A stretch of DNA of 60,857 bases. It comes from Myxococcota bacterium (GTDB taxonomy: Bacteria > Myxococcota_A > Polyangia > Polyangiales > Houyiibacteriaceae). The position numbers were made by a program, and so were the translations under genes. The stretch lies in NCBI GenBank assembly GCA_039186435.1, contig JBCDAA010000003.1, positions 1 to 60,857 on the forward strand, given 5' to 3'. Positions 20,228 through 60,857 of this stretch are shown here, piece by piece. The notes beneath the pieces were generated by a model. The model did no database searches. It was not told where the DNA came from and saw nothing but the letters and a program-made list of their open reading frames with translations. Every line of letters starts with the position of its first letter. The first letter of the stretch is position 1.

Positions 20228-20266
20228 CTCCGTAGAGTGATTCGGCGGCGTGGCGCCAATCCATAC

Positions 20267-20797: not shown

Positions 20798-20805
20798 CGG
20801 AGCCC

Positions 20806-21438
20806 TTAGTGCAGGTGTTCGCGCAGGCCGCGGTTGAGTTCGCCGTGTGCGCGTTTGAAGTCGTACCACCCGCGGGCGATCGTGCTGACCTTGTCGCGGG
20901 CCGCGTCTTCGTCGTAGCGAGACTCGGGATCGATCGCTTCGAGATACGCGAGGTAGTCGCTGAATCCGCCGCGGAGAACGCCGACGGCGGCGACGAGGTC
21001 GTTGACGTTGGAGACCATGTCCTCGGGCGGGATCAAGGCACGAAGGCGAGGTTCGAGATCCTCGAGCCGGTCGAGGCACTCGCGGCGGATGTAGGTCGCA
21101 AAGCGTGCTCCGCCGCGGGTTGCGCGCTCGTTGAGCTCTGCCGCGAGCTCTTCGTTGTTCGAGACTTCTTCGCGCCCCTGAAAGACACAGCCCCAAAACC
21201 CGTCGAAGAGGTCTCGCTTGGCGCCGTTCACGTTTTGCCCGAGCGTCTCGTAGGCCTCGTCGTCGCCTCCCAGCATGAAGAACGCGAGGCCTCCGCCAAG
21301 GACGAGGACGAGCGCGGCGATCAGCCCAATGAGGCCGCCCTTTCCGGCGCGCATGGCGCGCTCCTCGTCCTCGAGAGAAGGGCTGGGTCCCAGAGGTGGG
21401 AGCCCCCCGCCCACGCGCTGGAGATCGTTGGGATCCAT
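20806..21438 (-). CDS. Hypothetical single-pass membrane protein
   Basis: ATG at 21438 (MDPNDLQ), one TM helix, and a helical C-terminal domain with 2 Cys. Confidence 0.65.
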   Translation of the reverse strand: MDPNDLQRVGGGLPPLGPSPSLEDEERAMRAGKGGLIGLIAALVLVLGGGLAFFMLGGDDEAYETLGQNVNGAKRDLFDGFWGCVFQGREEVSNNEELAAELNERATRGGARFATYIRRECLDRLEDLEPRLRALIPPEDMVSNVNDLVAAVGVLRGGFSDYLAYLEAIDPESRYDEDAARDKVSTIARGWYDFKRAHGELNRGLREHLH

Positions 21439-43711: not shown

Positions 43712-45022
43712 CTACGCGATGAGCTTCCGGAGCACCTTGGACTTTCGCTGTCGGTCGTAGCCCTTTCGCTCGGGCGGGAGGTCCTTCGGTTTCGCCGGCG
43801 AAAACCCGCGCTCCTGAAACCAATGCCCCGACTGCGTCGTGAGCACGTAGAGCTCGGTGAGCTTTGCGTCGCGCGCGCGTCGTTCAATGGCTCGTAGCAG
43901 GACTTCTCCGCGGCCGTAACGCTGAAAATCTCGCCGCACGCCAAGGCACGCGAGTTCGCCTTTGCCGTCCTCGTACGGGTAGAGGGCCGCGCAGCCGAGC
44001 ACAAGCCCGTCGCGCTCCACGACTACAAAGTTGTCGATGTCCTCTTCGAGAAGCTCTCGCGAGCGATGAACGAGGACGCCTTCTTCTTCGAGCGGTTCGA
44101 GAATGTGCAATAGGCTCGGAACGTCGTTGAGGCGCGCCGGCCGAACGCCCTCGTAGAGTTCGCTCGTGACGAGCGTTCCGATCCCGTCGCGCGTAAAGAG
44201 CTCGCGAAGCAAACCGCCACTCTCCCGCCGATCGATGAGATGCGCGCGGGGCACACCTCGCTCCACCGCCGTCGTCGCCGCCGCGAGATGTTGTCGAACG
44301 TCCTGCGCGAGGCGCCGTTTGGACCCGAGAATCTCCCGCGCGGACGCAGGGTCGAGCTCGGTGTGAATCCCGCCCTTACCGTCGATGACGCCGCGTCCTT
44401 CCACAAGGGAAACAAGCTTTTCCGCGTTCAGCGCGACGGCCGTTTCCGCGGCGAGTTCAGGGGTGCTGAGGTTGAAGCACTCGCCGGTGACCGAGTAGCC
44501 GATGGGCGTGAGCGTGACGACCGCGCCGCGATCGAGGCGCTCGCGAATCGCTTCGTGGTCGATGCGCCGAACGCGTCCGGTGAAACCAAAGTCGACTCCG
44601 TCGATCACGCCGTGGGGGCGCGCCGTCACGAAGTTGCCCGTCGCAACGCGAACGCGAGCGCCAGCCATCGGTGAACCCGGCAATCCCATTGAGAGAAGAC
44701 GCTCGAGTTCCACTCGGTTGGTGCCCGCCGCTTCCATCGCGGCGGCGAGGGCGGCGCGGTCGGTGACCCGAAGGCCTTCGTGCATGCGCGAGGCGACGCC
44801 GCGGTCGGAGAGGCGTCGCTCGATCTGCGGGCGAGACCCGGCCACGAGGACAATGCGAACGCCAAGGCTGTTGAGGAGCGCCACGTCGCCAACGAGGTCG
44901 CGCAGGCCGCTCGAACGCATGACCTCGCCGCCGAAAACGACCACCATGGTGCGCCCGCGGTGCTGCCGAATGTAGGGGGCGGACTGCCGAAACCACTCCA
45001 CGAACTGCAGGTCGTCGCTCAC
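43712..45022 (-). CDS. argA: Amino-acid N-acetyltransferase (N-acetylglutamate synthase, AAK+GNAT)
   Basis: FVEWFRQSAPYI..HRGRT, GSRPQI, ELFTRDGIGT, GELACL, and LTTQSGHWFQERGF. The GTG start overlaps the argE stop. Confidence 0.95.
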   Translation of the reverse strand: MSDDLQFVEWFRQSAPYIRQHRGRTMVVVFGGEVMRSSGLRDLVGDVALLNSLGVRIVLVAGSRPQIERRLSDRGVASRMHEGLRVTDRAALAAAMEAAGTNRVELERLLSMGLPGSPMAGARVRVATGNFVTARPHGVIDGVDFGFTGRVRRIDHEAIRERLDRGAVVTLTPIGYSVTGECFNLSTPELAAETAVALNAEKLVSLVEGRGVIDGKGGIHTELDPASAREILGSKRRLAQDVRQHLAAATTAVERGVPRAHLIDRRESGGLLRELFTRDGIGTLVTSELYEGVRPARLNDVPSLLHILEPLEEEGVLVHRSRELLEEDIDNFVVVERDGLVLGCAALYPYEDGKGELACLGVRRDFQRYGRGEVLLRAIERRARDAKLTELYVLTTQSGHWFQERGFSPAKPKDLPPERKGYDRQRKSKVLRKLIA

Positions 45023-46173
45023 GCGGCCTCCACGCAATAACGCTGAATCAACTGGGCGTAGAACTCTTCGGCGGCGGTGAGACCCGCGCGGGAAATGTAC
45101 TCGTTCGGCTGGTGCGCGACGTCGATGCTCCCGGCGCCACAGACGATCGTCTCCATGCCCATCGCAGCGAAAAACGGGCTTTCGGTGCAGAACATGACGG
45201 CCTGCGGCGCGTGGCCGGTGAGCTTTTCGGCGAGCGCTACGAGCTCCGAGCCTTCCGGCGCCGCGAACGAAGGGACGCCCTCGACGAGGCTTTCAAAGGC
45301 GACCTCGACGGCGGCTTGATCGAAGCGCTCCGCGACCGCGTCGCGAATTCGCTCCGCGGTTTCGAGAAGATCCATGGAAGGCAAGAGCCGCACGTCGTAC
45401 GTCAACGAGCAGTGCGCGCAGATGCGATTTGGACTGTCGCCGCCCTCGATGCGGCCGAGGTTCAGCGTTGGCACCGGCACGGCGAAGGCCTCGTTGCGAT
45501 GTTCCTTTTGAAGTTCTTCGCGAACGGCGAGGAGCGCCGCGATGGCTTCGTGCATCGCTTCGAGCGCGCTGACGCCAAGGCTCGGATCCGACGAATGCCC
45601 GCTGCGTCCGGTGATCGTGATCGCCTCCATGAGGATGCCCTTGTGCATGTGCACCGGAACAAGCCCCGTGGGCTCGCCCACAACGCATCGCGAGGCGGTC
45701 GGCCGCTTCGCCTCGAGGAGGGCTCGGGCGCCATCCATGGTGCTCTCTTCGTCGGCGGTCGCCAAAAGCACCACCGGTTCCCGAAGCTGGCCCGCACGGA
45801 ACTTTGAGGCCGCGTGCAGCGCCGCACCGAAGAACCCCTTCATGTCTGCGGAACCGAGGCCGAAGAGCGCGCCGTCCTTCTCGGTGAGCTCGAAGGGCAC
45901 GGTGGCCCAGGACGCTTCGTCGAAGGGAACGGTGTCGCTATGACCCGCGAGCACCAACCCTCCTGGTCCGTCCCCGAGGGTTGCGATGAGGTTGGCTTTG
46001 GTCGGGTCGTTTGGAAGTGGCATGACCTCCACGCGAAACCCGACGTGCTCGGCCCACTCGGCAAGACGATCGATCACGCCGCGGTTGGACTGATCAAAAC
46101 GCGGGTCGGGTGAGCTCACCGAAGGCTGCGAGACGAGCTCGGCGACGAGGTCCGGCGATGAGGGGAGGGTCAC
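45019..46173 (-). CDS. argE: Acetylornithine deacetylase (M20A)
   Basis: LAGHSDTVP, GSADMKGF, ADEEST, GEPT, HKG, GHSS.P, and AHQPNEY. Adjacent to argA. Confidence 0.93.
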   Translation of the reverse strand: MTLPSSPDLVAELVSQPSVSSPDPRFDQSNRGVIDRLAEWAEHVGFRVEVMPLPNDPTKANLIATLGDGPGGLVLAGHSDTVPFDEASWATVPFELTEKDGALFGLGSADMKGFFGAALHAASKFRAGQLREPVVLLATADEESTMDGARALLEAKRPTASRCVVGEPTGLVPVHMHKGILMEAITITGRSGHSSDPSLGVSALEAMHEAIAALLAVREELQKEHRNEAFAVPVPTLNLGRIEGGDSPNRICAHCSLTYDVRLLPSMDLLETAERIRDAVAERFDQAAVEVAFESLVEGVPSFAAPEGSELVALAEKLTGHAPQAVMFCTESPFFAAMGMETIVCGAGSIDVAHQPNEYISRAGLTAAEEFYAQLIQRYCVEAA

Positions 46174-51266: not shown

Positions 51267-53075
51267 GTGAAGGCGCTCATCAAGGTCGGCTATGCGTGCA
51301 ACGACCATTGCGGCTTCTGCCACACCCTTCACGTGCGTCATATCGATGGCAGCGCGGACGAGGTGCATCGCAAGATCGAACGCGCGAAGGAGCTCGGACA
51401 CAGCATGGTGGTGCTGAGCGGTGGTGAACCCACCATTCGCCCTGAGCTTACTGAGTGGGCCGCGCACGTCGCGTCCCTCGACATGGACTTCGGTCTCGTC
51501 ACCAACGGCCGCATGCTCGCGTACCCCGACGTCGTCGAGACGTTGCTCAAGCATCGCCTTCGCTACGTCTATCTTTCGCTCCACGGTGGGAGCGCGAAGG
51601 TGCACAACCTCATGGTGCGTTCGCAGGCGTTTGAGGAGACCTACGGCGCGCTGGCCAACCTCACCGGGCGCGGTATCGATCTTCACGTGAACTGTGTGAT
51701 CACGCGCCACAACATGGATCACCTCCGGCCGCTGGTGGACTCGGTGCTTCCCTACGAGGACGCGTCGGTGAAGTTCTCGATGGTCGAGCCCAAGGGCGGC
51801 GGCGACGTCCTCTTTCGAAACCTCATGCCTCGCGTGAGCGACGTGGCCAAGAGGGTGGCGGACGCTCTCGCCTACGCGCGCGAGAAAACAGCGGGGCGGC
51901 CAGGACCACGCTTCGCCCACGGTGCAATTCCGCTCTGTCTCCTGCCGGGGGAGGAGAGCGGCTTCGATGATCTGAAGACCCACCAGTACTGGACGATGAT
52001 CGAGGTCGGGGAGTCGGACTTCTTTCCCGTCGACGACCTCAACAAAGTTCACCCCGCGCGGTGCGAGGGCTGCGCGCTCAAAGGCCCCTGTCCCGGGCTC
52101 TACCGCGGCTACCACGAGACCTTCGGCGACGAGGAGCTCAAGCCGGTGCGCGAAGGCGTGCGGAGCAACTCCTTCAACTACACCCTCGAGCGCGTCGTTC
52201 GAAGCGACCTGCCGTGCCCGCTTCGCGACGGGGCGCTCGGCATCACGCCGTGGGATCGGGGACGGCATCTCATCGTGCGCAACGGCGAGCGAGTCGGGAT
52301 CTATCGCGCGCCAACCCGTGACTTTTCGGACGCGGAGATCGCCGCCCTCAAACACGACGTCGGCCAGGTCTACGTCGACGCGTCACGTGGCAAGCCTGCG
52401 CCCGACGACTTCGCACGGGATCTCGTCAAGCTCCAGCGCGCGGGCGAGTGCGCTGGCTGTGAACACCAAGCCACCTGCAGCGGACTCTTCGAACCCGTGT
52501 TCGAGGATGTTTTCAGCCGCGACGATCAAGTCGTGCGCGCGCTTCTGGGATCCCTGGAAGGCGACGTTCTCGACATTGGCTGCGGCGAGGGCCCCTACGG
52601 CGATCTTCTCGGCGAACGCGTGCAAGCCGGCGCGCTCCGCTACGTCGGCATCGACCCCGATGCGCGGGCCATCCGCGGTCTTACCAAACGCTGGCCCTGG
52701 GCCGACCTGCACTGTGCGACGGCGGAGGACTTCGACCCCGGCCAGCAATTCGACCACGTCTTCATCCTACGAAGCTGGAACCACCTCTTCGATCCCGCCG
52801 GCTCCCTCGCGCGCGTCCGCGAATGGCTACGCCCCGGCGGCTGGCTCACCGTCGTCGACAACGTCGCCTTCGGCCTTGCCCGCACGGCGGCCCACACCTC
52901 TCGCGCCGAACGCTCCAGCGCTGAGCTCGAGCACCACCGCAACGACGACTCGGTCCAAGCCCGCAAAGTCGTGGAGGACGCCGGCTTCGAGGTTGTCCAG
53001 GAGATCGCGGTCGGGCCCGAGACCAGCAACCAGTGGCTCCTCCGCGGGCGGCCCGTCGACGAACGAGGCTCGTAG
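51267..53075 (+). CDS. Radical SAM (HxsC-like) plus class I methyltransferase fusion
   Basis: GTG at 51267, CNDHCGFC, SGGEPT, TNG, IPLC, two CxxC-x5-CxG motifs (CEGCALKGPCPG, CAGCEHQATCSG), VLDIGCGEG, and LRPGG. Confidence 0.85.
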   Translation: MKALIKVGYACNDHCGFCHTLHVRHIDGSADEVHRKIERAKELGHSMVVLSGGEPTIRPELTEWAAHVASLDMDFGLVTNGRMLAYPDVVETLLKHRLRYVYLSLHGGSAKVHNLMVRSQAFEETYGALANLTGRGIDLHVNCVITRHNMDHLRPLVDSVLPYEDASVKFSMVEPKGGGDVLFRNLMPRVSDVAKRVADALAYAREKTAGRPGPRFAHGAIPLCLLPGEESGFDDLKTHQYWTMIEVGESDFFPVDDLNKVHPARCEGCALKGPCPGLYRGYHETFGDEELKPVREGVRSNSFNYTLERVVRSDLPCPLRDGALGITPWDRGRHLIVRNGERVGIYRAPTRDFSDAEIAALKHDVGQVYVDASRGKPAPDDFARDLVKLQRAGECAGCEHQATCSGLFEPVFEDVFSRDDQVVRALLGSLEGDVLDIGCGEGPYGDLLGERVQAGALRYVGIDPDARAIRGLTKRWPWADLHCATAEDFDPGQQFDHVFILRSWNHLFDPAGSLARVREWLRPGGWLTVVDNVAFGLARTAAHTSRAERSSAELEHHRNDDSVQARKVVEDAGFEVVQEIAVGPETSNQWLLRGRPVDERGS

Positions 53076-53155
53076 AAAACCACCGTCAAAACTAATGGGT
53101 GGCCTCAACGCGTCGATGACGCTTCGCGCCTCGCTTCGCTCGGAGGTTCGCGAAC

Positions 53156-53848
53156 CTATTCACCACCAAACGCTTCACGCCGAAGCGCTTCGATCTGCGC
53201 CTCTCGGTCGCGATGCATCTTTTCGATGCGCCCCCGAAGCTCCTGGAGAATCCCCATCCGCTCCCCTTCCGGTGCGTTTGCCACCGCGCCCTCCTCACAG
53301 AGCTCGCCCGAACGCCGCACCTCCGACAACGTCCGCGACGCCGACGTCAGCGTGTGCGTCAGCACCCCCAAGAAGAGCAAGAGCGGGATCACCAGCGCGA
53401 GCAACCGAATCCACTTCGGCGCACCCACCCGCCGCGCGACGAAGGGCCCAGAGAGCAAGAGCAAGAGGATCACCCCGCCGATGGCTAGCCAATGGCCGTG
53501 GTGGTCGAGCGTCTCCTCCCACAAACTGCGCGCCGCCCCCTCCCGCTGGTCGTGGCAGAAGTCGCTCTCCACCAAACGCTCATGCTCGCGCTCGATCGCC
53601 TCGTTGAGCTCGTTGCCAAGCTCCTGGTTCAAGTCCACGTGCGAGACATCAAAGGGCTCGGCAGAGGTCCCCTCCGGAACCAGCGAAGGATCGGACACAA
53701 AGACCGTTCGGCCCTCGTCGTTCTCGTAGCTGTAGAACGCCGGACCGTCGGGTTCACCCCAACTCTCGAGCGGTGAGCCCGCACATCCCGCGACCCACAC
53801 CCAAAGCAGCGCCCACCAAGCCGAGCGAGATCGCGTGCGCCAGGACAT
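53156..53848 (-). CDS. Membrane lipoprotein with a DUF4124-like motif
   Basis: Lipobox VAGC, FYSYENDEGRTVFVSDP, and two TM helices. Confidence 0.6.
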   Translation of the reverse strand: MSWRTRSRSAWWALLWVWVAGCAGSPLESWGEPDGPAFYSYENDEGRTVFVSDPSLVPEGTSAEPFDVSHVDLNQELGNELNEAIEREHERLVESDFCHDQREGAARSLWEETLDHHGHWLAIGGVILLLLLSGPFVARRVGAPKWIRLLALVIPLLLFLGVLTHTLTSASRTLSEVRRSGELCEEGAVANAPEGERMGILQELRGRIEKMHRDREAQIEALRREAFGGE

Positions 53849-53974
53849 CCTCATTTCCTCCGGCCCAAGACGCGTCATCTCCGGCAGCCGTACCACGAAT
53901 TCGCTCTCTCGGACGCTCCTCCTTTTCGCGTCTCCGGTATGGTACCCACCTCGGTCCCGGTGTATTTTCCGCCT

Positions 53975-54460
53975 ATGAGCGACGACTTCGTCGGCGTGCC
54001 CGACGCGATCGCCCGTGCGGACCTCCGAGAGAGTTCCGCCGAGCTTTACCTAGACGACTCCCTATACCCCCTCGAAGCCGTGTACGGCGCGAGCTTTACC
54101 TTCATCGATCGCTGCTTCGTGTTTATCGACCGGCCGGAAGCCAACCGCTTTCGCGTGACCCTCTCGACCAAGAAGCCAGGCACCGAGGAAGACGTGCTTC
54201 GTACGCTGGTCGGCGAGTTTTCGAACGAGCTCCTCGCGTGCGCCTGGCGGGCGAAGATTACCGAGCAGAACCGCGCCACGTTGGAAGCTGTCACCATGCA
54301 AGCCATCGGCGGAGCTATGGGTCCGCCGAGCCTCGACGATCTCGAGGACTTCGACTTCTCCGAGGAACCCTTCGAAGACCCACTCGGTATCGCCATGAGT
54401 TGGGAAGAGAAATACGGCAAGAAGTCACCGCCCAAGAAAAAGAAGAAAGAAGAAGAATGA
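53975..54460 (+). CDS. hxsD: His-Xaa-Ser system protein HxsD
   Basis: LDDSLYPLEAVYGASFTFIDRC and GEFSNELL..AWRAKI...N, ending in DPLGIA.SWEEKY. First gene of the hxs operon. Confidence 0.8.
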   Translation: MSDDFVGVPDAIARADLRESSAELYLDDSLYPLEAVYGASFTFIDRCFVFIDRPEANRFRVTLSTKKPGTEEDVLRTLVGEFSNELLACAWRAKITEQNRATLEAVTMQAIGGAMGPPSLDDLEDFDFSEEPFEDPLGIAMSWEEKYGKKSPPKKKKKEEE

Positions 54461-54675
54461 GGGAGCTCCGATTTTCGAAGGAGATCTACCGCGGCGAGGA
54501 CGTCGACGCCGCGCTGAGGGTCTTCGAGAAATACGGTGACTTCGAACAGGAAGCGACCGACGACGCTTGGGTGATCCGCGTGAGCGCCGGCTCCCGCGCA
54601 AGAGAGCGCCGCCTCGCTGGCGAACTTGGCAACTACGCGCTTGGCCTTACGATTCGTCATCGGGGTGTCTCGTGA
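54457..54675 (+). CDS. Second, short HxsD-like protein
   Basis: ATGA overlap. MRELRFSKEIY....VDAA..F...GELGNYAL has the same pattern as the HxsD core. Overlaps the hxsB GTG start. Confidence 0.7.
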   Translation: MRELRFSKEIYRGEDVDAALRVFEKYGDFEQEATDDAWVIRVSAGSRARERRLAGELGNYALGLTIRHRGVS

Positions 54676-56192
54676 GCGCACAAGTCGATTTTGCAGCGTT
54701 GGGCCTTGAGCGACTTTCCTTTGACCACGCCGCACCCTTTCGGATGCGGAAACTGGGCGACAAAACCCTGCTCACGAGCGTCGCGGGGCGATACGCGCTT
54801 CTCGACGACGAAGAGCTCCGTGCATTCGCCACCGGTGCGATCAAGGAGGGCACGCCCCTCTATGAGACGCTGAGCGAAGCAAACCTACTTCGCGACACGT
54901 TCGACGTGCCCGCGGCTGCGCAGATGCTTCAAGCGCGGCGCGCGTTCGTGGGTGCTGGACCGAATCTGCACGTTTTCGTCGTGACGCTCCGCTGCAACAC
55001 GACGTGCGTTTACTGCCATGCGTCGCGCGCCAACATGGACGCTGTCCACACGGACATGACGCCTGCCGTCGCGGAGAAGTGCGTCGACTTCGTGCTCTCA
55101 TCGACCAACCCTGCGATCACGATTGAGTTCCAGGGCGGTGAACCGCTTGTCGCCTTCGACACGGTTAAGCACATCATCGAGTACGCTCTCGAGAAGAACA
55201 AAACCATCGGGAAGGAACTCGAGTTCACGATGGTCTCGAACCTTTCCTTGATGGATGAGGAAAAGCTCACGTACTTGCTCGAGCATCGCGTGCAGCTTTG
55301 CACCAGCATCGATGGTCCGCCGGACATCCACGACAAGGTTCGCAAGCTCCCCAAGGCCTACGGCGATAGCGGTCACGACCTCGCGGTGCAGTGGACCCGT
55401 CGAATCAACGAGCGGTACCGAGAGATGGGCCTTGACGAGACCCTCTACCATGTCGAAGCGCTCGTCACGACGACCCGCGGGCTCCTTCCGCGCTGGAAGG
55501 AGCTCGTCGACACCTACGTTGGCCTCGGGTGCCGGGCGCTCTTTCTGCGGCCGCTCGATCCCTTCGGCTTCGCGGATCGAACCGGCAAGCGCATCGAATA
55601 CCCGCGCGAGGAGTACCTCGAGTACTACCGCAACGCGGTCGAGTACATGATCGAGCTAAACCACCAGGGGGTGGAGATCCTCGAGCGCTACGCGGCCATC
55701 TTTCTGACGAAGATCCTTCGGGGCGAAGACCCCAACTTCCTCGACATTCGTCAGCCCGCCGGCGCGGGCATCGGGCAGCTCGCGTACAACTACGACGGGC
55801 AGATCTTCACCTGCGACGAAGGTCGTATGTTGCACGAGATGGGTGACGATGCGTTTCACCTCGGTCATGTGGACACGTCGTCCTACCGCGACATCGTCGG
55901 CCATCCGACCGTCCGCGCGGTGGTCATCGCGGGGCAGCTTCAGGGACTCCCTGACTGCACCGACTGTACGTACCAGCCCTACTGCGGCGTCCCGCCAGTT
56001 CACAGCCACAAGGTTCAGGGGACCATCTTCGGTCGGATGCGCGAGTCGACCCTTTGTCAGGTACACAAGGGCATCCAGGACTACCTCTTCGAGAAGATTG
56101 CGGAGGGCGATCCCAAGACTCTGGAGGTCTTTGAACGCTGGACGACCATTCGCCCGCGGGAGCACTTTCTTCACCCGCCGGGCGAAGAGTAG
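54672..56192 (+). CDS. hxsB: His-Xaa-Ser system radical SAM maturase HxsB
   Basis: N-terminal PFR.RKL..LLT..G, GPNLH.FVVTLRCNTTCVYCHAS, IEFQGGEP, CTSIDGP, GAGIGQLAYNYDG.IFTCDEGRM, and CTDCTYQPYCG. Confidence 0.9.
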   Translation: MSAQVDFAALGLERLSFDHAAPFRMRKLGDKTLLTSVAGRYALLDDEELRAFATGAIKEGTPLYETLSEANLLRDTFDVPAAAQMLQARRAFVGAGPNLHVFVVTLRCNTTCVYCHASRANMDAVHTDMTPAVAEKCVDFVLSSTNPAITIEFQGGEPLVAFDTVKHIIEYALEKNKTIGKELEFTMVSNLSLMDEEKLTYLLEHRVQLCTSIDGPPDIHDKVRKLPKAYGDSGHDLAVQWTRRINERYREMGLDETLYHVEALVTTTRGLLPRWKELVDTYVGLGCRALFLRPLDPFGFADRTGKRIEYPREEYLEYYRNAVEYMIELNHQGVEILERYAAIFLTKILRGEDPNFLDIRQPAGAGIGQLAYNYDGQIFTCDEGRMLHEMGDDAFHLGHVDTSSYRDIVGHPTVRAVVIAGQLQGLPDCTDCTYQPYCGVPPVHSHKVQGTIFGRMRESTLCQVHKGIQDYLFEKIAEGDPKTLEVFERWTTIRPREHFLHPPGEE

Positions 56193-56308
56193 TGATTTCA
56201 GGAGTTTGTCGTCTTTTCCGCGCGAACCCTCTCCGCCGAAAATTGCAGGCTCCCGGGAGTCCATCGCGTGACAAGAGCCCGCCGGGGAGGCTAAGATAGC
56301 CACATATC

Positions 56309-56626
56309 ATGGCGGATTCGGATCACCGAGACGACGATCAAGATCAAGACTGGGGCGACGACTTCGGCGACGAGCTTCCGAGCTTTGAGCGGGAAGCGGC
56401 GGGGTCCTTGAACGTCGAGGAAAAGGAAATGTCCGAACGTGCGCGCGCCAACGCGGACGAGGTGGACGCTTCCGGAAGCCAGCGCGGTGCACAGCACTGT
56501 TCGCACGGCTCCCATGGCTCGCACGGAAGCCACGGTTCGCACGGCAGTCACGGCTCGCACGGCAGTCACGGCTCGCACGGCAGCCACGGCTCGCACGGCA
56601 GCCACGGATCCCACGGCAGCTGGTAG
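56309..56626 (+). CDS. hxsA: His-Xaa-Ser repeat precursor peptide (HxsA-type)
   Basis: 62-aa acidic leader, then HCS, 13 x HGS and a terminal W. Lies between two radical SAM genes. Confidence 0.9.
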   Translation: MADSDHRDDDQDQDWGDDFGDELPSFEREAAGSLNVEEKEMSERARANADEVDASGSQRGAQHCSHGSHGSHGSHGSHGSHGSHGSHGSHGSHGSHGSHGSHGSW

Positions 56627-56632
56627 GCCCCG

Positions 56633-57682
56633 ATGGAAGGCAAACTGCGCCTTCCTCTCGCGGATCGGGCCGACACCGCGCGCGATGTAAGCGCACGGAT
56701 TCAGGAGAAGGCCGAACGCGTCCACATCCTTACCGGCCCGGTGTGCAACAACAACTGCATCTTCTGCATGGAGGAAGATCGGGAGGGTCGAAAGATCCTC
56801 AACTCGCAAACGGACGACGCCCTCGTGGACTGGATCCTCGAGCAGAACGCGCCCTGTGAGGAGGTCTGCTTTACCTCCGGCGAGCCGACGATGAACAAGA
56901 GCCTTCCGCGCTGGGTGCAGAAAGCGCGAAAGGCGGGTGTGGATCGGGTCAGCGTGATGACCAACGCGCGAGCGCTCTCCTACCTGCGCTACGCCCAGAT
57001 GCTCGTCAAAGCGGGGATGAACCGCTTCTACGTGTCCATTCATGGTCACACCGCTCGGCTTCACGAGAGTTTGGTGCGAACACCAGGCGCTTTCGACCAG
57101 ACCGTCGAGGGCATCCGCAACATCACAAAGCTCAAGCGCTACGGCGTCGAGCTTCACACCAGCACCGTGGTGACCAAGCGGAACCTTCCGCACCTCAAGG
57201 ACATCTATCGGTTCCTTCGAGCACTTGGCGTCGATCAAGTGGTCTTCAACATCATGCAGGCGAACGGCCGGGCCGATACCTACTTCGAGCGTATCTTTCC
57301 CCGCTACTCGGATATCGCCGCGGAGGCCGCGCGTTTTGTGGAGGGGGAGACCGGGCCGGTGATGGCGTTCTTCGTCGACATTCCGCTCTGCACGACGACC
57401 GCCCTGCCCGACTTCAACCGAGGCTTTGTCGAGGCCTACAAACACTACGAGCCCGACGACGGAAGCGCGGGCGGTCACGACGTTCGCCTGAAGGTGCTCG
57501 ACCGCGCGGAGGACGAAGAGGGCCCCGTTGCCGTTCGGCGAAGCGACCTTGATGACGACCTCCGCCAAAAGCGGGCGGAATGCCGGAGCTGCCGCTACGA
57601 CGCGGTGTGTGAGGGCGTTTGGTCGAACTACCTGAAGCGTTTTGGCTGGGACGAGATGGTGCCGGTGCCCTTCGATGACTGA
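56633..57682 (+). CDS. hxsC: His-Xaa-Ser system radical SAM protein, HxsC-like
   Basis: CNNNCIFC, FTSGEPT, MTN, SIHGH...H, GAFDQT..G, IPLC, and C-terminal CRSCRYDAVCEG. Starts 6 bp after the precursor. Confidence 0.82.
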   Translation: MEGKLRLPLADRADTARDVSARIQEKAERVHILTGPVCNNNCIFCMEEDREGRKILNSQTDDALVDWILEQNAPCEEVCFTSGEPTMNKSLPRWVQKARKAGVDRVSVMTNARALSYLRYAQMLVKAGMNRFYVSIHGHTARLHESLVRTPGAFDQTVEGIRNITKLKRYGVELHTSTVVTKRNLPHLKDIYRFLRALGVDQVVFNIMQANGRADTYFERIFPRYSDIAAEAARFVEGETGPVMAFFVDIPLCTTTALPDFNRGFVEAYKHYEPDDGSAGGHDVRLKVLDRAEDEEGPVAVRRSDLDDDLRQKRAECRSCRYDAVCEGVWSNYLKRFGWDEMVPVPFDD

Positions 57683-58175
57683 GCGGCGTGTCGTCCTGAT
57701 GCGGCATGCGAAGAGTTCCTGGAAAAGCGATGCGCCGACGGACCACGCGCGGCCACTAAACAAACGAGGGCGACGAGCCGCCCCGAAGGTCGCGCTGGAG
57801 CTAAAGCGTCTCGACTGGGTGCCTGACCTCGTTCTCTCGAGCGATTCGGTGCGAACGACCGAGACCTGGGATCTCATGCACGAGGCGATGGGAGGGGAGC
57901 GTCCGGTGCGTTTTCTGCCGGAGCTCTACCACGGCGACACGGACGACATTCGTAGCGCGCTCGCCACGGTGGGCGAGTCCTTTCGCACGGTGCTAGTGCT
58001 CGGCCACAACCCCGGCTGGGAGGAAGCGCTCTTTTGGTTTTCGGGTCGCGACGAAGAAATGAAGACGGCGTGCGCGGCGCTTCTGACGAAGAAGGCGATC
58101 AGCTGGGCGGAGGCGTCGCAGTCCGCGACGACCTGGGCCCTCGCTCATTTTATTGCGCCGCGGGAGCTCGAGTAG
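57675..58175 (+). CDS. SixA-type histidine phosphatase
   Basis: LMRHAKS, D..RPL..RG, SS...RT.ET, LY, and GHNPG. The ATG overlaps the hxsC stop. Confidence 0.9.
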   Translation: MTERRVVLMRHAKSSWKSDAPTDHARPLNKRGRRAAPKVALELKRLDWVPDLVLSSDSVRTTETWDLMHEAMGGERPVRFLPELYHGDTDDIRSALATVGESFRTVLVLGHNPGWEEALFWFSGRDEEMKTACAALLTKKAISWAEASQSATTWALAHFIAPRELE

Positions 58176-58383
58176 GCGCGGTCCGTCCGACCCAGACACT
58201 CGCCGCACCAAGTCTTGCCCATGCCCGTGCCCGTGCGCTTGCCCGAATCAGCCAGACACCCGCCGCGGAACTCCATCGGCAAGGGCACGGGCAAGCCTGC
58301 TGTCGTGGAACCAGAACTGCAACAACCGAACACCGTGCGAGAGCACTTTCGCTGGAGCGGCTGCAGCGACCTATGCTCGTCGC

Positions 58384-59088
58384 ATGCGGGTCGTTACTGC
58401 AGTACTCCTGCTCTTCGGGTGCGAAGGCGCGAACGACTACAGCGATACCCCCGATCTTGCGTCGATTCGCCGCGCGTTCCTCTGCGGCTCGGCAGTGGGA
58501 TCCGCCCGCGACGCTTGCGACACGGTCGATGCGTTTGAGCGTGCTAGCGCTGTACGCTTTCCAGCAACCCGAACTGTTTACGTTGGGCAACCGATCTGTT
58601 CGACCGGTCTCAATCCTGGTGCCTTCAAGCGTTACGCACTCGAGGCGGGCACGCCGACAGCCAGCCGCCGTGTCGACGTCGCCCACCTCCCTGCCGGGTT
58701 TCTCTACGAGCGCATCATTTCCTACAACGACCAGTTGCCTGGCTTGATCCCTGCCGCCGAGCAGACCCTCCGTGCCCTTGCGAACGAAGAGCCCACGCCA
58801 GGCGTGGCGGCTTCCGCGACCGAAGCGATGCCTCGTCGCTGGGAGGAATGGCGCGGGCGTCGTTCGACTTCGCCGGTGTCCGACCTCGCCCAAAGCGACG
58901 GGAGAAGCCTCCTGATTGCCCCCGGCCGTACCCCGGCGGCGTGGGACGATGCGCAACCCCGAGCGAGCTTTACCTACATCCGGCAGGAAGGCCGGGAGCT
59001 CTACGCGATCCGTCCGCCAACAGGCAGTGGCCCCCTCGGTCACGAAGCCTGCGTTGTCCGCGCCTTCTCCTTGCCCGAGGGCGAGTAG
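58384..59088 (+). CDS. Hypothetical lipoprotein
   Basis: MRVVTAVLLLFGC lipobox at 58384. Confidence 0.55.
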   Translation: MRVVTAVLLLFGCEGANDYSDTPDLASIRRAFLCGSAVGSARDACDTVDAFERASAVRFPATRTVYVGQPICSTGLNPGAFKRYALEAGTPTASRRVDVAHLPAGFLYERIISYNDQLPGLIPAAEQTLRALANEEPTPGVAASATEAMPRRWEEWRGRRSTSPVSDLAQSDGRSLLIAPGRTPAAWDDAQPRASFTYIRQEGRELYAIRPPTGSGPLGHEACVVRAFSLPEGE

Positions 59089-59322
59089 CGTCCGGACACG
59101 GTGTGCACGCTCGCCGCGTTTGCGACGGAGGCGCGTTCGGTCCTTCCCTCGGAGTGGAGCCGCGTGTGGAAACGCGACCGCTTTCGGGGATCTGACCGTT
59201 CGACAGACCTGTCAGTTCATCAATCGGTGCGACTCCCAGTCAGTGCGAGACGCTGAAACTAACCGCACGGTCGGTTTAAGCAGAGAGCCCCTTCGAACGC
59301 CCAGCCGAACGTTGCGTTCGCA

Positions 59323-59862
59323 TCACGTCGGCTCGGCTCTCCACGTCGGTCCTTCGGAGACGTCGATCGAAACGGCGTCCCGCGCGCGAAACTCGTCTCC
59401 CTCGAAGCGGTCGCGATAAACGGTGCTCACGCCCGGGCACGCGCTTCGCGCCGCGCACGTCTCACAGGCGCTTCCGAAGGACTGTGCTTCCGTACGTCGC
59501 GCGCGGGTTGCGTAGGGCCCGAGCAAGCAGAGCGGCCACGCCAAGAGGGAGACCTCGATGCCCTGACGTTCGGCGCGAGTAAGCGCGTGCAACACCCGAG
59601 GCGCGGCGAGCGCTAACCGCGGCGCCACCGCGTCGATTTCGCCGGCCGTGGGTACTGGCGCCAGGGACCAGCGCTCTACCTTTTCGCGAACGAGAACGGG
59701 CAAGAGGTGATCGAGGGCGCGCATGTTGGAGCGCGTCACCCACGTCAGAACGGTCCGCGGGGTTGAGGCCCGTAGCGCCTTGAGAGACTCCGTATAGACG
59801 GGAAACCCGAGGGCCGAGTGATAGTCGTGAACCTGCTGCGTCCCGAAGAGGACGGTGCTCAT
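59323..59862 (-). CDS. Truncated radical-SAM-like protein (HxsC-like C-terminal half, no CxxxCxxC)
   Basis: LFG...VHD, VTRSN, APRL, WPLCLLGP, and CETCAARSACPGV...Y..RF...E. The ATG overlaps the upstream stop. Confidence 0.65.
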   Translation of the reverse strand: MSTVLFGTQQVHDYHSALGFPVYTESLKALRASTPRTVLTWVTRSNMRALDHLLPVLVREKVERWSLAPVPTAGEIDAVAPRLALAAPRVLHALTRAERQGIEVSLLAWPLCLLGPYATRARRTEAQSFGSACETCAARSACPGVSTVYRDRFEGDEFRARDAVSIDVSEGPTWRAEPT

Positions 59863-60857
59863 GTGTCGAAGAGGCCGTTGCTGATCTGAATCTCGAAGGG
59901 CGCACAGGTCACCGCCGCACCCATGCGCCGCACTACCTGAAGGAAGTACGTCTGGGAGTTGTCGGAGCACTTGCTGACGTTGGTCGTGTTGACGCTGCTG
60001 GCCGTGCACGGACATTCGCCAGTGCGTCGCCCAGCGAGGGTTTCGCGGAAGTCGGTGGCCCAGCTGAAGCCGGTAAACCCGGACGCCGGACAGACTGCGC
60101 TGTCGCAGGTGCCCTGAAAGACGTTGAAGCGATAGGTGTCGTCCGGGTTCGTCATAAAGCGGACGTCGACGTGAAAGTTGTCGCAGCTTGTGTCGGGCGC
60201 GTCGATCGCGCGGAATTGGTACCAAATCTCTCGACCCGCAGGCACGAGGTTGCCGGTCACCATCTGCATTTGTCCGTCATCGCGCACGTCACCGAGGTTG
60301 ATCGGCGCGCCGCACGCCATGCCCATCCCCATCGCCGGGGTCGCAGTGCACTCGCATCCGTTGTCGGCCACGCCGTCGACGTCGTACTGGTTCGGCGGGC
60401 ACCCGCACGCGCCGTCGATGCACTCGCCGCCCATCGGGTCGTCCGCGCAGAGAAGGCCCGGGTTGCCCTCGTCGATCATCTCATCGCAGTCCTCGTCCAT
60501 GAGGTTGCAGAGCTCCATCGCGAGCGGGCTGATGTTCGGGTCAGCTTCGTTGCAATCTTCGGCGGCCGGCGAGCCGTCTCCATCGATGTCGAGGTCCCCT
60601 GGAACGCAGTTGTTGTTCCGGCAGAGGCTGAGTTCGCCGGGGCACTCCGCGTCGCTGAAGCATCCGGGGAAGGGTTCGCAGCTTCCACCGACGCAGCGCG
60701 TGAAGCCTTCGCACACCACCCCATCACACGGGTCCGGGGCTGTGTCGACGCCCGCGTCGACGCCCGTATCGCGACCCCCACCGTCGGTTGTGCCTCCGTC
60801 CGAGGGTGTCGGTCGGTCCGTGCATCCTTGCAGGCTGTCGCAGAACTGACCCATGCC
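59859..60857 (-). CDS. Cys-rich secreted protein with putative metal-binding repeats (partial, begins beyond the window)
   Basis: DIDGDGSPAAEDCNEADPNISPLAMELCNLMDEDCDEMIDEG (myxobacterial putative metal-binding motif) and DVDGVADNGCEC. Confidence 0.8.
   Translation of the reverse strand, partial: GMGQFCDSLQGCTDRPTPSDGGTTDGGGRDTGVDAGVDTAPDPCDGVVCEGFTRCVGGSCEPFPGCFSDAECPGELSLCRNNNCVPGDLDIDGDGSPAAEDCNEADPNISPLAMELCNLMDEDCDEMIDEGNPGLLCADDPMGGECIDGACGCPPNQYDVDGVADNGCECTATPAMGMGMACGAPINLGDVRDDGQMQMVTGNLVPAGREIWYQFRAIDAPDTSCDNFHVDVRFMTNPDDTYRFNVFQGTCDSAVCPASGFTGFSWATDFRETLAGRRTGECPCTASSVNTTNVSKCSDNSQTYFLQVVRRMGAAVTCAPFEIQISNGLFDT

What the first reader, a model, noticed from the sequence alone, without database searches (positions are those of the whole stretch)
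51267..59862. Expanded His-Xaa-Ser radical-SAM peptide-modification locus with extra tailoring enzymes
Seen: a tightly linked run of hxsD, hxsD-like, hxsB (rSAM), an HGS-repeat peptide, hxsC-like (rSAM) and sixA. It is flanked by a radical SAM-methyltransferase fusion (51267-53075) and a truncated HxsC-like gene (59323-59862). The HxsC-like gene, the fusion and the truncated gene all carry a PLC motif followed by CxxC-x5-CxG. Known: TIGRFAMs defines HxsA-D as a peptide plus paired radical SAM system from gene context; I know of no established chemistry or product. Inference: this is a RiPP-like pathway with three intact rSAM enzymes and a methyltransferase acting on a poly-His/Ser core, possibly giving a crosslinked or methylated metal-binding peptide.
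Basis: partly seen in the sequence, partly recalled or inferred. Interest (0 to 1): 0.88.

Follow-up and report, generated by a model that had tools for sequence, protein, structure and literature searches.

The report
Expanded myxobacterial His-Gly-Ser peptide maturation locus
This is a real, conserved myxobacterial variant of the His-Xaa-Ser radical-SAM system that matures a short (His-Gly-Ser)n peptide using extra enzymes the studied E. coli antiphage version lacks, and its product and role are still unknown.

Summary
HxsD, HxsD-like, HxsB, HxsA4 and HxsC4 all pass their NCBIfam cut-offs.

The core is NCBIfam's curated "type 4" Hxs cassette, so it is not new in itself.

What I found no record of in the library searches or family names: the rSAM-methyltransferase fusion is a near-obligate partner. 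Of 401 same-class genomes, 105 hold it and 102 of those hold HxsB; 70 of 71 HxsC4 genomes hold it.

The "truncated" gene really is truncated. Its full-length relatives are about 345-aa rSAM enzymes. The short form is inherited, keeps four Cys, and lies within 10 kb of Hxs genes in at least 50 of 77 strong hits.

SixA is in the operon here but in only 1 of 80 related loci.

HxsA4 looks like a RiPP precursor: conserved acidic leader, HCS(HGS)n core, invariant C-terminal Trp.

E. coli HXS is a published antiphage system (PMC13128918), but this variant fails its defining features.

Verdict: new variant of a known kind; function open.

The parts
51267..53075 (+). Three-part fusion. Residues 1-293: HxsC-like radical SAM domain (CxxxCxxC at 11; PLC at 222; CxxCx5CxG at 266). 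About 294-420: family-specific middle domain with four invariant Cys (C317 plus CxxCx5C at 395). About 425-602: class-I SAM methyltransferase domain.
   Evidence: Pfam. NCBIfam best hit is HxsC4 at 101.8 bits, far below its cut-off of 500. Motifs. Aligns to HxsC4 over residues 5-294, 27% identity, E 6e-31. Middle-domain alignment A2. Middle-domain profile finds only 203 representative clusters among 1.84 billion proteins; most of the 150 listed are about 600-aa proteins with the match near residues 270-430, or about 300-aa proteins with it at the N-terminus. The start at 51267 fits the consensus N-terminus of 25 homologues.
53156..53896 (-). 246-aa ORF with a lipobox-like N-terminus and hydrophobic segments. 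It is a lineage-specific insert between the fusion and hxsD, probably not part of the system.
   Evidence: Coding-like codon bias: GC3 0.80, GC2 0.47. No family. 0 of 80 related loci. No similarity to the same gap in the same-genus locus L010.
53939..54460 (+). HxsD. The start may instead be the Met at 53975.
   Evidence: TIGR03976 52.2 bits, cut-off 50. Found in 35 of 80 related loci.
54457..54675 (+). HxsD-like small protein. Its ATG overlaps the hxsD stop (ATGA).
   Evidence: NF038315 65.5 bits, cut-off 41. DNA read. Found in 33 of 80 loci.
54672..56192 (+). HxsB, a SPASM-type radical SAM maturase. Its GTG start overlaps the hxsD-like stop (GTGA).
   Evidence: TIGR03978 533.7 bits, cut-off 370. 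DNA read. The frame error led to the corrected start at 54672.
56309..56626 (+). HxsA4 precursor, 105 aa. Acidic leader, 56309-56494 (62 aa, net charge -14). Core HCS plus 13 HGS, 56495-56620. Terminal Trp, 56621-56623.
   Evidence: NF038313 101.2 bits, cut-off 55. Composition. Orthologue comparison.
56633..57682 (+). HxsC4, a radical SAM enzyme with one C-terminal auxiliary-cluster motif. It starts 6 nt after hxsA4.
   Evidence: NF038332 582.4 bits, cut-off 500; canonical HxsC model TIGR03977 only 92.6, cut-off 267.9. Closest solved structure by sequence is BlsE, 7vob, E 7e-12.
57675..58175 (+). SixA-like protein of the histidine phosphatase superfamily. It overlaps hxsC4 by 8 nt, so it is in the operon here, but it is lineage-specific.
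   Evidence: TIGR00249 38.0 bits, cut-off 74.5. Pfam His_Phos_1 33.7, cut-off 21.7. Found in 1 of 80 loci, L011.
58381..59088 (+). Uncertain ORF with a lipoprotein-like N-terminus. Not conserved.
   Evidence: No family. 0 of 80 loci. Weak codon signal, GC3 0.71.
59323..59862 (-). N-terminally truncated member of a fourth HxsC-like radical SAM family. It lacks the SAM-cluster loop and keeps PLC plus CxxCx5CPG. Its ATG overlaps the stop of the upstream Cys-rich gene.
   Evidence: Full-length relatives. Tree. Linkage to Hxs genes. Family profile hits BlsE residues 129-216, E 1.7e-5.
59859..60857 (-). Cys-rich protein with a MopE-type 'putative metal-binding' motif, cut by the contig end. The same-genus orthologue is about 500 aa with a lipoprotein signal.
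   Evidence: Pfam PF11617 33.8 bits, cut-off 27. L010 orthologue. Orthologues at 39% identity or more in 11 of 80 loci.

Best explanation
The locus is a Polyangia-specific 'type 4' His-Xaa-Ser system that matures a ribosomal peptide.

Shown:
- HxsA4 has a conserved acidic leader and a core of HCS(HGS)n ending in Trp.
- It is encoded with HxsD, an HxsD-like protein, the SPASM rSAM enzyme HxsB and the rSAM enzyme HxsC4.
- Two further genes belong to the same conserved gene set. One is an rSAM, second-auxiliary-cluster and SAM-methyltransferase fusion. The other is a fourth HxsC-like rSAM, which in this lineage is reduced to its C-terminal half.

Inferred mechanism:
- The small HxsD-type proteins present the leader-bound peptide to the rSAM enzymes. 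An HxsC-HxsD complex was shown by pull-down in E. coli.
- HxsB, HxsC4 and the fusion then act repeatedly on each His-Gly-Ser unit.
- Because His-X-Ser is an aromatic-X-X triplet, one plausible step is a His-to-Ser-C-beta crosslink of the triceptide kind (-2 Da per unit). The fusion's methyltransferase domain would add one-carbon units.
- The truncated protein cannot cleave SAM. At most it is an Fe-S or scaffold partner.
- SixA and the two lipoprotein-like ORFs are local additions.

The end product is probably an intracellularly made, heavily modified His-rich peptide. Its role is not established; metal binding, a peptide-derived small molecule and phage defence all remain possible.
For: Family membership over curated cut-offs.

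Operon coupling by 4-nt and 8-nt overlaps.

Related loci (80, all Myxococcota):
- The order fusion, HxsD, HxsB, HxsC4 on one strand within 7 kb recurs in 19 loci.
- HxsB and the fusion are together in 26 loci.

Whole genomes (401 of the same class):
- HxsC4 is over its cut-off in 71.
- HxsB is at E<=1e-60 in 119.
- The fusion is at E<=1e-40 in 105.
- The HxsB-by-fusion table is 102 / 17 / 3 / 279.
- 70 of 71 HxsC4 genomes hold the fusion.

Fourth rSAM family:
- 110 of 401 genomes match its profile.
- Of 77 hits at 100 bits or more, 43 lie within 2 kb and 50 within 10 kb of an Hxs gene. The nearest gene is the fusion in 33.

Precursor:
- A conserved leader motif around LP(S/T)F...L...(Q/E)(R/K)E(I/M)S is seen across about 57 orthologues.
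- 694 of 695 non-first units are HGS.
- 55 of 59 runs end in Trp then stop.
- Ser uses both TCN (524) and AGY (230) codons, so selection acts on the amino acids rather than on a DNA repeat.
- Copy number varies from 4 to 21.

All three rSAM CxxxCxxC motifs are intact, as is the GxGxG methyltransferase motif.

From the E. coli paper (PMC13128918, sections 8-9 read): HxsB/C/D-dependent processing, an HxsC-HxsD pull-down, and a modification localised to an HxS unit.

From PMC11499958 (passages read): His-C2 to X3-C-beta crosslinks made by rSAM/SPASM enzymes on HAA, HTK and HNR motifs.
Against: - No chemistry was tested, and no structure or complex could be predicted because those tools were off.
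- HxsB scores far below the cut-offs of the cyclophane-synthase families: YhhB 49.5 against 445, XyeB 42.4 against 450. The crosslink type is therefore a guess.
- The E. coli mass shift is +8 Da, not -2 Da.
- I found no leader protease, exporter or recognisable RRE domain among recurrent neighbours.
- In 14 of 40 loci with HxsB the fusion is not in the fetched stretch. About half of those are cut by the locus end.
- 17 of 119 HxsB genomes show no fusion.
- In genus g54 the short fourth-rSAM gene is usually on another contig or far away.
- The window's truncated copy evolves fast: 37-39% identity to L009 and L010 against 76-83% for HxsC4 and HxsB, and an end branch of 1.42 against a median of 0.28. 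It may be nearly functionless.
- The genomes are related, so the co-occurrence counts overstate independent support.
Confidence: 0.7

Rival explanations
1. It is an antiphage defence system that works like E. coli HXS. Matured HxsA would sit in the periplasm and block phage DNA entry.
For: HxsB and HxsD belong to the same families as in the characterised system. That system is shown to be antiphage in PMC13128918 (abstract and sections 8-11 read).
Against: - HxsA4 has no signal peptide and no recognisable domain. Its N-terminus is strongly acidic, with leader net charge -14.
- E. coli HxsA needs a signal peptide, a peptidoglycan-binding domain and basic repeats.
- The gene order is D-D'-B-A-C, not D-B-C-A.
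- The system is near-universal in one family: the fusion in 60 of 71, HxsB in 58 of 71 and HxsC4 in 48 of 71 genomes of f19. That looks more like vertical inheritance than a patchy defence island.
- The neighbours are housekeeping or envelope genes, and no mobile or defence genes were seen.
- PADLOC gives only generic rSAM hits, but that library predates the HXS paper.
Confidence: 0.2
2. The truncated rSAM gene at 59323-59862 is a decaying relic with no function. The locus effectively has three enzymes.
For: - It lacks the N-terminal ~100 residues of its full-length relatives (P0138: CxxxCxxC at residue 12, conserved HDYH at 113), including the CxxxCxxC loop.
- It is the fastest-evolving gene of the cluster.
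- The HDYH motif is missing in several of its closest relatives, which were dropped from the tree for that reason.
- Full-length versions exist in other lineages.
Against: - The short form is inherited. It sits in a 15-row group (SH-aLRT 87) and a separate 7-row clade (99). The tree needs 8 changes of state against about 22 in shuffles.
- 17 of the 80 loci, plus the window, share roughly the same N-terminal boundary.
- The ORF is intact.
- The four auxiliary-cluster Cys are kept in 23 of 24 hits and are invariant in alignment A1.
- It stays next to Hxs genes through several rearrangements.
- It is translationally coupled to the upstream gene.
Confidence: 0.35
3. The flanking fusion and truncated rSAM are unrelated neighbours that happen to lie beside an hxs operon.
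For: - A non-conserved opposite-strand ORF and two extra genes separate them from the core in this window.
- This genome holds many HxsC4-like paralogues, 17 matches.
Against: - Genome-wide co-occurrence: 102 of 105 fusion genomes hold HxsB, and 3 of 282 genomes without HxsB hold the fusion.
- Direct adjacency recurs in many lineages and in several different gene orders.
Confidence: 0.04

Closest known systems
E. coli HXS antiphage system (HxsD-HxsB-HxsC-HxsA; Li et al., Nat Commun 2026, PMC13128918)
   Same: An HxsB-family SPASM rSAM, an HxsD-family small protein, a second rSAM of the HxsC type, and a substrate with His-Xaa-Ser repeats encoded in the same operon.
   Different: - The substrate here is a 105-aa acidic peptide with 14 HxS units and no signal peptide or peptidoglycan-binding domain. 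The E. coli substrate has five basic repeats on a protein of at least 214 residues.
- The gene order differs.
- HxsC4 fails the canonical HxsC model: 92.6 bits, cut-off 267.9.
- There are extra genes: an HxsD-like protein, the rSAM-methyltransferase fusion and a fourth rSAM.
- The host is Polyangia, whereas the paper reports 99.7% of systems in Pseudomonadota.
NCBIfam 'type 4' models: NF038313 HxsA4, NF038332 HxsC4, NF038315 HxsD-like
   Same: The window's proteins score over all three curated cut-offs. The core cassette is therefore already catalogued.
   Different: No NCBIfam model reaches its cut-off on the fusion or on the truncated or fourth rSAM. No paper in the library mentions HxsA4 or HxsC4.
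Triceptide (three-residue cyclophane) rSAM/SPASM synthases acting on His motifs: HaaB, HtkB, YhhB (PMC11499958, passages read)
   Same: A SPASM rSAM enzyme acts on a repeated aromatic-X-X triplet in a leader-bearing peptide. His-Gly-Ser fits the motif form.
   Different: HxsB is well below those families' cut-offs. No crosslink is shown. The system has two or three further rSAM enzymes and a methyltransferase.
Peptide-derived cofactor pathways: PqqA/PqqE/PqqD, and mycofactocin MftA/MftC/MftB (recalled from general knowledge)
   Same: A small precursor peptide, an rSAM enzyme with an auxiliary cluster, and a small accessory protein. PqqE and mycofactocin rSAM models appear among the fusion's weak hits.
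   Different: All scores are far below the cut-offs. The multi-copy HGS core has no counterpart in those pathways.
BlsE (cytosylglucuronate decarboxylase, PDB 7vob/7voc)
   Same: It is the closest solved structure by sequence for HxsC4 (E 7e-12) and for the truncated family's profile (E 1.7e-5, chain residues 129-216).
   Different: It acts on a nucleoside sugar, not a peptide. The similarity is at superfamily level only.

Membership tests
His-Xaa-Ser system (TIGRFAM/NCBIfam HxsA-D) | HxsB equivalog TIGR03978 over its cut-off | tested here: met
   533.7 bits, cut-off 370
His-Xaa-Ser system (TIGRFAM/NCBIfam HxsA-D) | HxsC: canonical equivalog TIGR03977 over its cut-off | tested here: not met
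   92.6 bits, cut-off 267.9. The variant model NF038332 HxsC4 is met instead: 582.4, cut-off 500.
His-Xaa-Ser system (TIGRFAM/NCBIfam HxsA-D) | HxsD TIGR03976 over its cut-off | tested here: met
   52.2 bits, cut-off 50, so marginal. A second, HxsD-like gene scores NF038315 65.5, cut-off 41.
His-Xaa-Ser system (TIGRFAM/NCBIfam HxsA-D) | Adjacent protein with tandem His-Xaa-Ser repeats | tested here: met
   NF038313 HxsA4 101.2 bits, cut-off 55. 14 HxS units.
E. coli-type HXS antiphage defence (PMC13128918) | HxsA with a signal peptide and a peptidoglycan-binding domain | tested here: not met
   The only Pfam hit is a low-complexity match to Collagen (27.3 bits, cut-off 27.2). The N-terminus is acidic with no hydrophobic stretch. 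No dedicated signal-peptide predictor was run.
E. coli-type HXS antiphage defence (PMC13128918) | Four-gene D-B-C-A organisation | tested here: not met
   The order here is D, D-like, B, A4, C4, plus conserved extra genes. The paper gives D-B-C-A for 99.6% of systems.
E. coli-type HXS antiphage defence (PMC13128918) | Protection against phage infection | not testable with these tools
   Needs a phage challenge assay.
RiPP pathway | Short precursor with a conserved leader and a distinct core next to its maturases | tested here: met
   Leader motif conserved across about 57 orthologues; core is HCS(HGS)n followed by Trp.
RiPP pathway | Leader-recognition element, leader protease or exporter in the cluster | tested here: inconclusive
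   No Pfam-recognisable protease, transporter or RRE among the ten recurrent-neighbour representatives scanned.
Triceptide synthases (3-residue cyclophane-forming rSAM/SPASM) | Enzyme scores over the cut-off of a cyclophane-synthase family | tested here: not met
   YhhB NF041707 49.5 bits, cut-off 445. XyeB TIGR04496 42.4, cut-off 450. AmcB 45.5, cut-off 425.
Triceptide synthases (3-residue cyclophane-forming rSAM/SPASM) | Aromatic-X-X motif in the core peptide | tested here: met
   His-Gly-Ser units. The motif definition is from PMC11499958.
Cobalamin-dependent (class B) radical SAM methylases | B12-binding domain next to the rSAM domain | tested here: not met
   Pfam finds only Radical_SAM plus class-I methyltransferase domains in the fusion. 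The class definition is recalled.
SixA phosphohistidine phosphatase | TIGR00249 over its cut-off | tested here: not met
   38.0 bits, cut-off 74.5. Superfamily-level Pfam His_Phos_1 is met: 33.7, cut-off 21.7.

The most novel reading that the evidence does not exclude
Each His-Gly-Ser triplet is a separate unit of chemistry. Three or four radical SAM enzymes and a methyltransferase would turn every HGS into the same crosslinked or heterocyclic, C1-decorated imidazole unit. HxsA4 would then be a multi-copy precursor of 4-21 units, for either a new peptide-derived small molecule or cofactor or a poly-chelating metallophore. Polyangia would keep this as a vertically inherited physiological trait rather than as phage defence. 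It would also bear on the unexplained +8 Da ('+C/-4H') chemistry of the E. coli HXS effector.
Probability: 0.2. Interest if true: 0.85.

Novelty: new variant of a known kind. Interest (0 to 1): 0.6.

Why it matters
The His-Xaa-Ser system was an orphan family for over a decade. Only in 2026 was it tied to a function, and its radical chemistry is still unsolved.

This myxobacterial variant may be an easier route to that chemistry:
- The substrate is short and soluble-looking. It has up to 21 identical HGS units, so any modification should show as a multiplied mass shift.
- The enzyme set is conserved and clearly delimited, and it includes a dedicated one-carbon (methyltransferase) module.

It also shows that Hxs enzymes are not confined to periplasmic antiphage effectors. 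The family may therefore have more than one biological role.

Tried and rejected
PADLOC scan: only generic viperin-like rSAM hits, which are uninformative. The library dates from 2023, before the HXS paper.

Promoter and terminator scan: 2 promoter-like sites against 0.9 expected, one of them 12 nt upstream of hxsA4 (56268-56297). This is not significant, so I did not use it.

Search for further conserved neighbours:
- I ran an all-against-all comparison of 5,995 stop-to-stop ORFs from 59 related loci plus the window.
- It found no recurrent protease or transporter with a Pfam match.
- Single-linkage clustering merged all rSAM paralogues and their shadow ORFs into one giant cluster, so it could not separate the paralogues.

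Middle domain of the fusion:
- No relative by sequence in the PDB.
- No usable ESM Atlas match; all TM scores were 0.5 or less.

TM246 against the equivalent gap in the same-genus locus: no similarity.

RNA evidence: no RNA holder was listed.

My first reading of the truncated gene, was 'a conserved family that is short by nature'. I rejected it when the 'longer' search found equally similar full-length rSAM enzymes.

My first HxsB start, 54671, was out of frame. The codon-position GC showed this, and I corrected it to 54672.

Limits on the counts:
- The genome lists were copied by hand from the outputs.
- In one search I entered 85 HxsB places, not all of those listed. I also omitted the lower-identity or partial fusion hits and the sub-cut-off HxsC4 hits, apart from a few.
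- The adjacency counts are therefore lower bounds.
- In the tree, 11 rows were dropped before building because my trimming motif (HD[YFHW][HLF]) was not found. These were L010, L012, L013, L014, L018, L019, L041, L042, L032, L062 and one L067 hit.

Literature: the statements that nothing is in print on HxsA4, HxsC4 or HGS-repeat peptides rest on the searches only. Supplements of PMC13128918 were not seen.

Full report
WHAT IS THERE

The window is a whole 60.9-kb contig (C3) of a 9.47-Mb assembly in 768 contigs, 93.9% complete. Its closest relatives are Polyangiales and Polyangiaceae genomes.

Between 51267 and the contig end, the ORF list and family scans give this order:

| Gene | Coordinates | Strand |
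|---|---|---|
| rSAM-methyltransferase fusion | 51267-53075 | + |
| 246-aa membrane/lipoprotein-like ORF | 53156-53896 | - |
| HxsD | 53939-54460 | + |
| HxsD-like | 54457-54675 | + |
| HxsB | 54672-56192 | + |
| HxsA4 | 56309-56626 | + |
| HxsC4 | 56633-57682 | + |
| SixA-like phosphatase | 57675-58175 | + |
| uncertain lipoprotein-like ORF | 58381-59088 | + |
| truncated HxsC-like rSAM | 59323-59862 | - |
| Cys-rich MopE-motif protein, cut by the contig end | 59859-60857 | - |

- HxsD, HxsD-like, HxsB, HxsA4 and HxsC4 each exceed the curated NCBIfam cut-off.
- The SixA-like protein does not reach the SixA equivalog cut-off (38.0 bits, cut-off 74.5). It does pass Pfam His_Phos_1.
- Reading the DNA shows an ATGA overlap between hxsD and hxsD-like, and a GTGA overlap between hxsD-like and hxsB.
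- There is a 6-nt gap between hxsA4 and hxsC4, and an 8-nt overlap between hxsC4 and sixA.
- The plus-strand genes from hxsD to sixA therefore form one tightly coupled operon.
The fusion carries a second copy, and the truncated gene has no CxxxCxxC.

THE CORE IS ALREADY CATALOGUED, AND ITS RELATIVES NOW HAVE A FUNCTION

NCBIfam holds dedicated models for HxsA4, HxsC4 and the HxsD-like protein, and the window's proteins match them. A 2026 paper (PMC13128918; I read the abstract and sections 8-11) reports the following:

- The E. coli HxsD-B-C-A cassette is a broad antiphage system that blocks DNA entry.
- HxsB, HxsC and HxsD are needed for its N-terminal processing.
- HxsC and HxsD pull down together.
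- A +8 Da ('+C/-4H type') change maps to an SHRSS unit.
- 99.7% of systems are in Pseudomonadota, and over 99.8% have just the four genes.

No paper in the library mentions HxsA4, HxsC4 or HGS-repeat peptides.

THE FLANKING FUSION BELONGS TO THE SYSTEM

A scan of one genome per species found 147 stretches encoding HxsC4 relatives. The best 80 loci were kept, and all are Myxococcota. tblastn of the window's proteins against these 80 loci gave:

| Gene | Loci with a hit (of 80) |
|---|---|
| HxsB | 40 |
| HxsD | 35 |
| HxsD-like | 33 |
| fusion | 31 (26 with all three parts) |
| HxsB and fusion together | 26 |
| same-strand order fusion, HxsD, HxsB, HxsC4 within 7 kb | 19 |

- In 14 loci with HxsB the fusion was not seen. 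About half of those are cut by the end of the fetched stretch.
- In 5 loci the fusion was seen without HxsB.

Whole-genome searches of 401 genomes of the same class gave:

| Query | Genomes with a match (of 401) |
|---|---|
| HxsC4 over its cut-off | 71 |
| HxsB at E<=1e-60 | 119 (115 over the cut-off) |
| fusion at E<=1e-40 | 105 |

- The fusion matches split into 81 full-length at 50% identity or more (a few of these cut or split by contig ends), 14 full-length at 29-43%, 8 with only the middle-plus-methyltransferase half (all in family f2), and 2 split.
- 102 genomes have both HxsB and the fusion, 17 have only HxsB, 3 have only the fusion (these are 72-84% complete), and 279 have neither.
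- 70 of 71 HxsC4 genomes have the fusion.
- Related genomes are not independent, so these counts overstate the support. Even so, the association holds across many families and several gene orders.
- Sources name the fusion's relatives only as generic 'radical SAM protein' or the like: 959 clusters at E<=1e-20, with the best 120 listed.

The fusion's architecture is as follows:

- Residues 5-294 align to HxsC4 (27% identity, E 6e-31).
- The roughly 130-residue middle domain has four invariant Cys (alignment A2).
- That domain has no PDB or Atlas relative.
- A profile search of 1.84 billion representatives finds it in only 203 clusters. Most of the 150 listed have it at the same place in about 600-aa proteins, or at the N-terminus of about 300-aa proteins.

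THE 'TRUNCATED' GENE

A near-length search found 17 clusters of 179-280 aa, none with a CxxxCxxC in the alignment. HDYH, P-x-C-LLGP and CxxCx5CPG are invariant. I first read this as a family that is short by nature.

The 'longer' search overturned that reading:

- 41 proteins of 315-666 aa are just as similar (37-46% identity).
- 40 of the 41 carry CxxxCxxC near the N-terminus.
- The family is therefore a fourth, normally full-length, HxsC-like rSAM enzyme.

With a full-length member as tblastn query:

- 10 of the 80 loci hold a full-length copy.
- 17 loci and the window hold only the part from about residue 87-110 onward.
- The window matches residues 66-270.

On a tree of 74 rows:

- The short forms cluster. 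A 15-row group includes the window (SH-aLRT 87), and a separate 7-row clade has support 99.
- The tree needs 8 changes of state against about 22 in shuffles.
- Eleven rows were dropped because they lacked my trimming motif.

The truncation is therefore old and inherited. It is neither a fresh lesion nor an assembly artefact.

The family is tightly linked to the system:

- 110 of 401 genomes match its profile.
- Of the 77 hits at 100 bits or more, at least 43 lie within 2 kb and 50 within 10 kb of a fusion, HxsB or HxsC4 gene. The fusion is the nearest gene in 33.
- 8 hits are on the same contig but 16-68 kb away, and 19 are on other contigs.
- 75 of the 77 are in genomes that hold Hxs genes.

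Against a role for the window's copy:

- It is by far the fastest-evolving gene of the cluster. It shares 37-39% identity with L009 and L010, against 76-83% for HxsC4 and HxsB.
- It sits on a long branch.
- It aligns to fusion residues 122-292, and its family profile hits BlsE residues 129-216. That is the back half of the rSAM barrel plus the auxiliary-cluster motif.
- It cannot cleave SAM.

WHAT DOES NOT BELONG

- SixA was found in 1 of 80 loci (L011). It is absent from the same-genus locus L010, where HxsC4 is followed directly by the truncated gene.
- The 246-aa ORF, the 58381-59088 ORF and the two upstream ORFs had 0 of 80 hits.
- These look like local insertions, although sixA is translationally coupled here.

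THE PRECURSOR

- HxsA4 has a 62-residue leader with net charge -14. The core is HCS plus 13 HGS, followed by Trp.
- Orthologues lie just upstream of HxsC4 or beside HxsB in 54 of the 80 loci. None was found in the 21 loci with the lowest HxsC4 identity, 57-61%.
- They share a leader motif around LP(S/T)F...L...(Q/E)(R/K)E(I/M)S...AD, followed by a variable linker.
- Across 59 repeat runs, the first unit is HCS in 42, HAS in 11, HGS in 5 and HSS in 1.
- 694 of 695 later units are HGS, and 55 runs end in Trp then stop.
- The unit number ranges from 4 to 21.
- Ser is encoded by TCN (524) as well as AGY (230) codons. The triplet is therefore held by selection on the protein, while copy number drifts.
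- This is the anatomy of a RiPP precursor, and unlike the E. coli effector.

HOW IT MOST LIKELY WORKS

Shown: the conserved gene set and the precursor anatomy.

Inferred:
- The HxsD-type proteins act as adaptors, by analogy with the E. coli HxsC-HxsD complex.
- HxsB, HxsC4 and the fusion's rSAM domain each modify every HGS unit, and the methyltransferase domain adds carbon.
- Published rSAM/SPASM enzymes make His-C2 to X3-C-beta crosslinks on HAA, HTK and HNR triplets (PMC11499958, passages read). A His-to-Ser crosslink is therefore a reasonable first guess for HxsB.
- HxsB is nevertheless far below those families' cut-offs, and the E. coli mass shift is +8 Da, not -2 Da.

I could not test folds or complexes.

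WHAT IT IS FOR

An E. coli-like periplasmic defence role is unlikely to transfer directly, for four reasons:
- HxsA4 has no export signal or cell-wall-binding domain.
- The leader is acidic.
- The gene order and gene content differ.
- In family f19 the system is near-universal: the fusion in 60 of 71 genomes, HxsB in 58 of 71, the fourth rSAM in 59 of 71 and HxsC4 in 48 of 71.

The neighbours are housekeeping or envelope genes: an ArgA-like protein, an M20 peptidase, VWA/VIT proteins and a porin.

A conserved Cys-rich lipoprotein with a Pfam 'putative metal-binding' motif accompanies the locus in 11 of 80 loci. That is only a weak hint towards metal chemistry.

My rough odds for the role are:
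- defence: about 0.2
- metal-binding peptide: about 0.25
- peptide-derived small molecule: about 0.15
- the rest is unknown

VERDICT

- The locus is real and conserved, and it is partly catalogued already.
- The expansion by the fusion and by a fourth (here truncated) rSAM is well supported. I found no description of it in the searches I ran.
- It is a new variant of a known kind, with an attractive substrate for solving Hxs chemistry.

Noticed in passing
L089 = G000 contig C417, 1-7710: The same genome holds a second Hxs-like locus on a 7.7-kb contig. It has HxsB (491 bits, cut by the contig end), an HxsD-like protein (54.6, cut-off 41) and an HxsD relative (39.6, below 50). These are divergent from a very long open frame that contains an HxsC-like rSAM domain (residues about 774-1048) and an oxidoreductase-like stretch. 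I did not scan L089 for an HxS-repeat peptide.
   Followed up: partly
G000 contigs C297, C164, C115, C566 and others; L010:13253-14188 and 19919-20941: The genome has 17 matches to the HxsC4 model, of which one is over the cut-off. In the same-genus locus, further HxsC4-like rSAM genes lie beside Cys-rich secreted proteins (LDL-receptor class A repeats, the MopE-motif protein) and a C92 amidase-like protein. This points to a wider paralogous family of such rSAM enzymes in these myxobacteria, possibly paired with Cys-rich substrates.
   Followed up: partly
Related loci, e.g. L036:13378-14118 and L055:11033-12199: In the loci where HxsB and HxsC4 are on opposite strands (L022, L023, L028, L035, L036 and L055 among them), a conserved ORF with a 'G(Y/F)PxCC(I/V)DAF' motif lies between HxsC4 and the short rSAM gene. 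It gives a weak DUF483 hit: 23.7 bits, cut-off 25. It is not present in the window.
   Followed up: partly
Family f2 genomes, e.g. G142:C12:541813-542730 and G203:C5:439386-440315: In 8 genomes of one family, only the middle-domain-plus-methyltransferase half of the fusion is found, as a gene of about 300-375 aa. It lies 8-44 kb from HxsC4 or on another contig. The related loci L068-L088 show no HxS peptide within 10 kb of HxsC4. The system appears dispersed or remodelled there.
   Followed up: no
L013, L014, L019 (upstream of HxsC4): Some relatives carry two tandem hxsA4 genes with different repeat numbers, for example 13 and 18 units.
   Followed up: no
window 56268-56297 (+): A sigma-70-like site (GTGACA, 18 nt, TAAGAT; 9 of 12 matches) lies 12 nt upstream of the hxsA4 start, inside the 116-nt gap after hxsB. 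It could give the precursor its own promoter, but the scan as a whole is not above chance (2 found, 0.9 expected).
   Followed up: no
window 43712-46173 (-): Adjacent ArgA-like (amino-acid kinase plus GNAT) and M20 peptidase genes, together with VWA/VIT proteins and a LamB-like porin further upstream, form the housekeeping and envelope context of the locus. The VWA gene is syntenic with the same-genus locus L010.
   Followed up: partly
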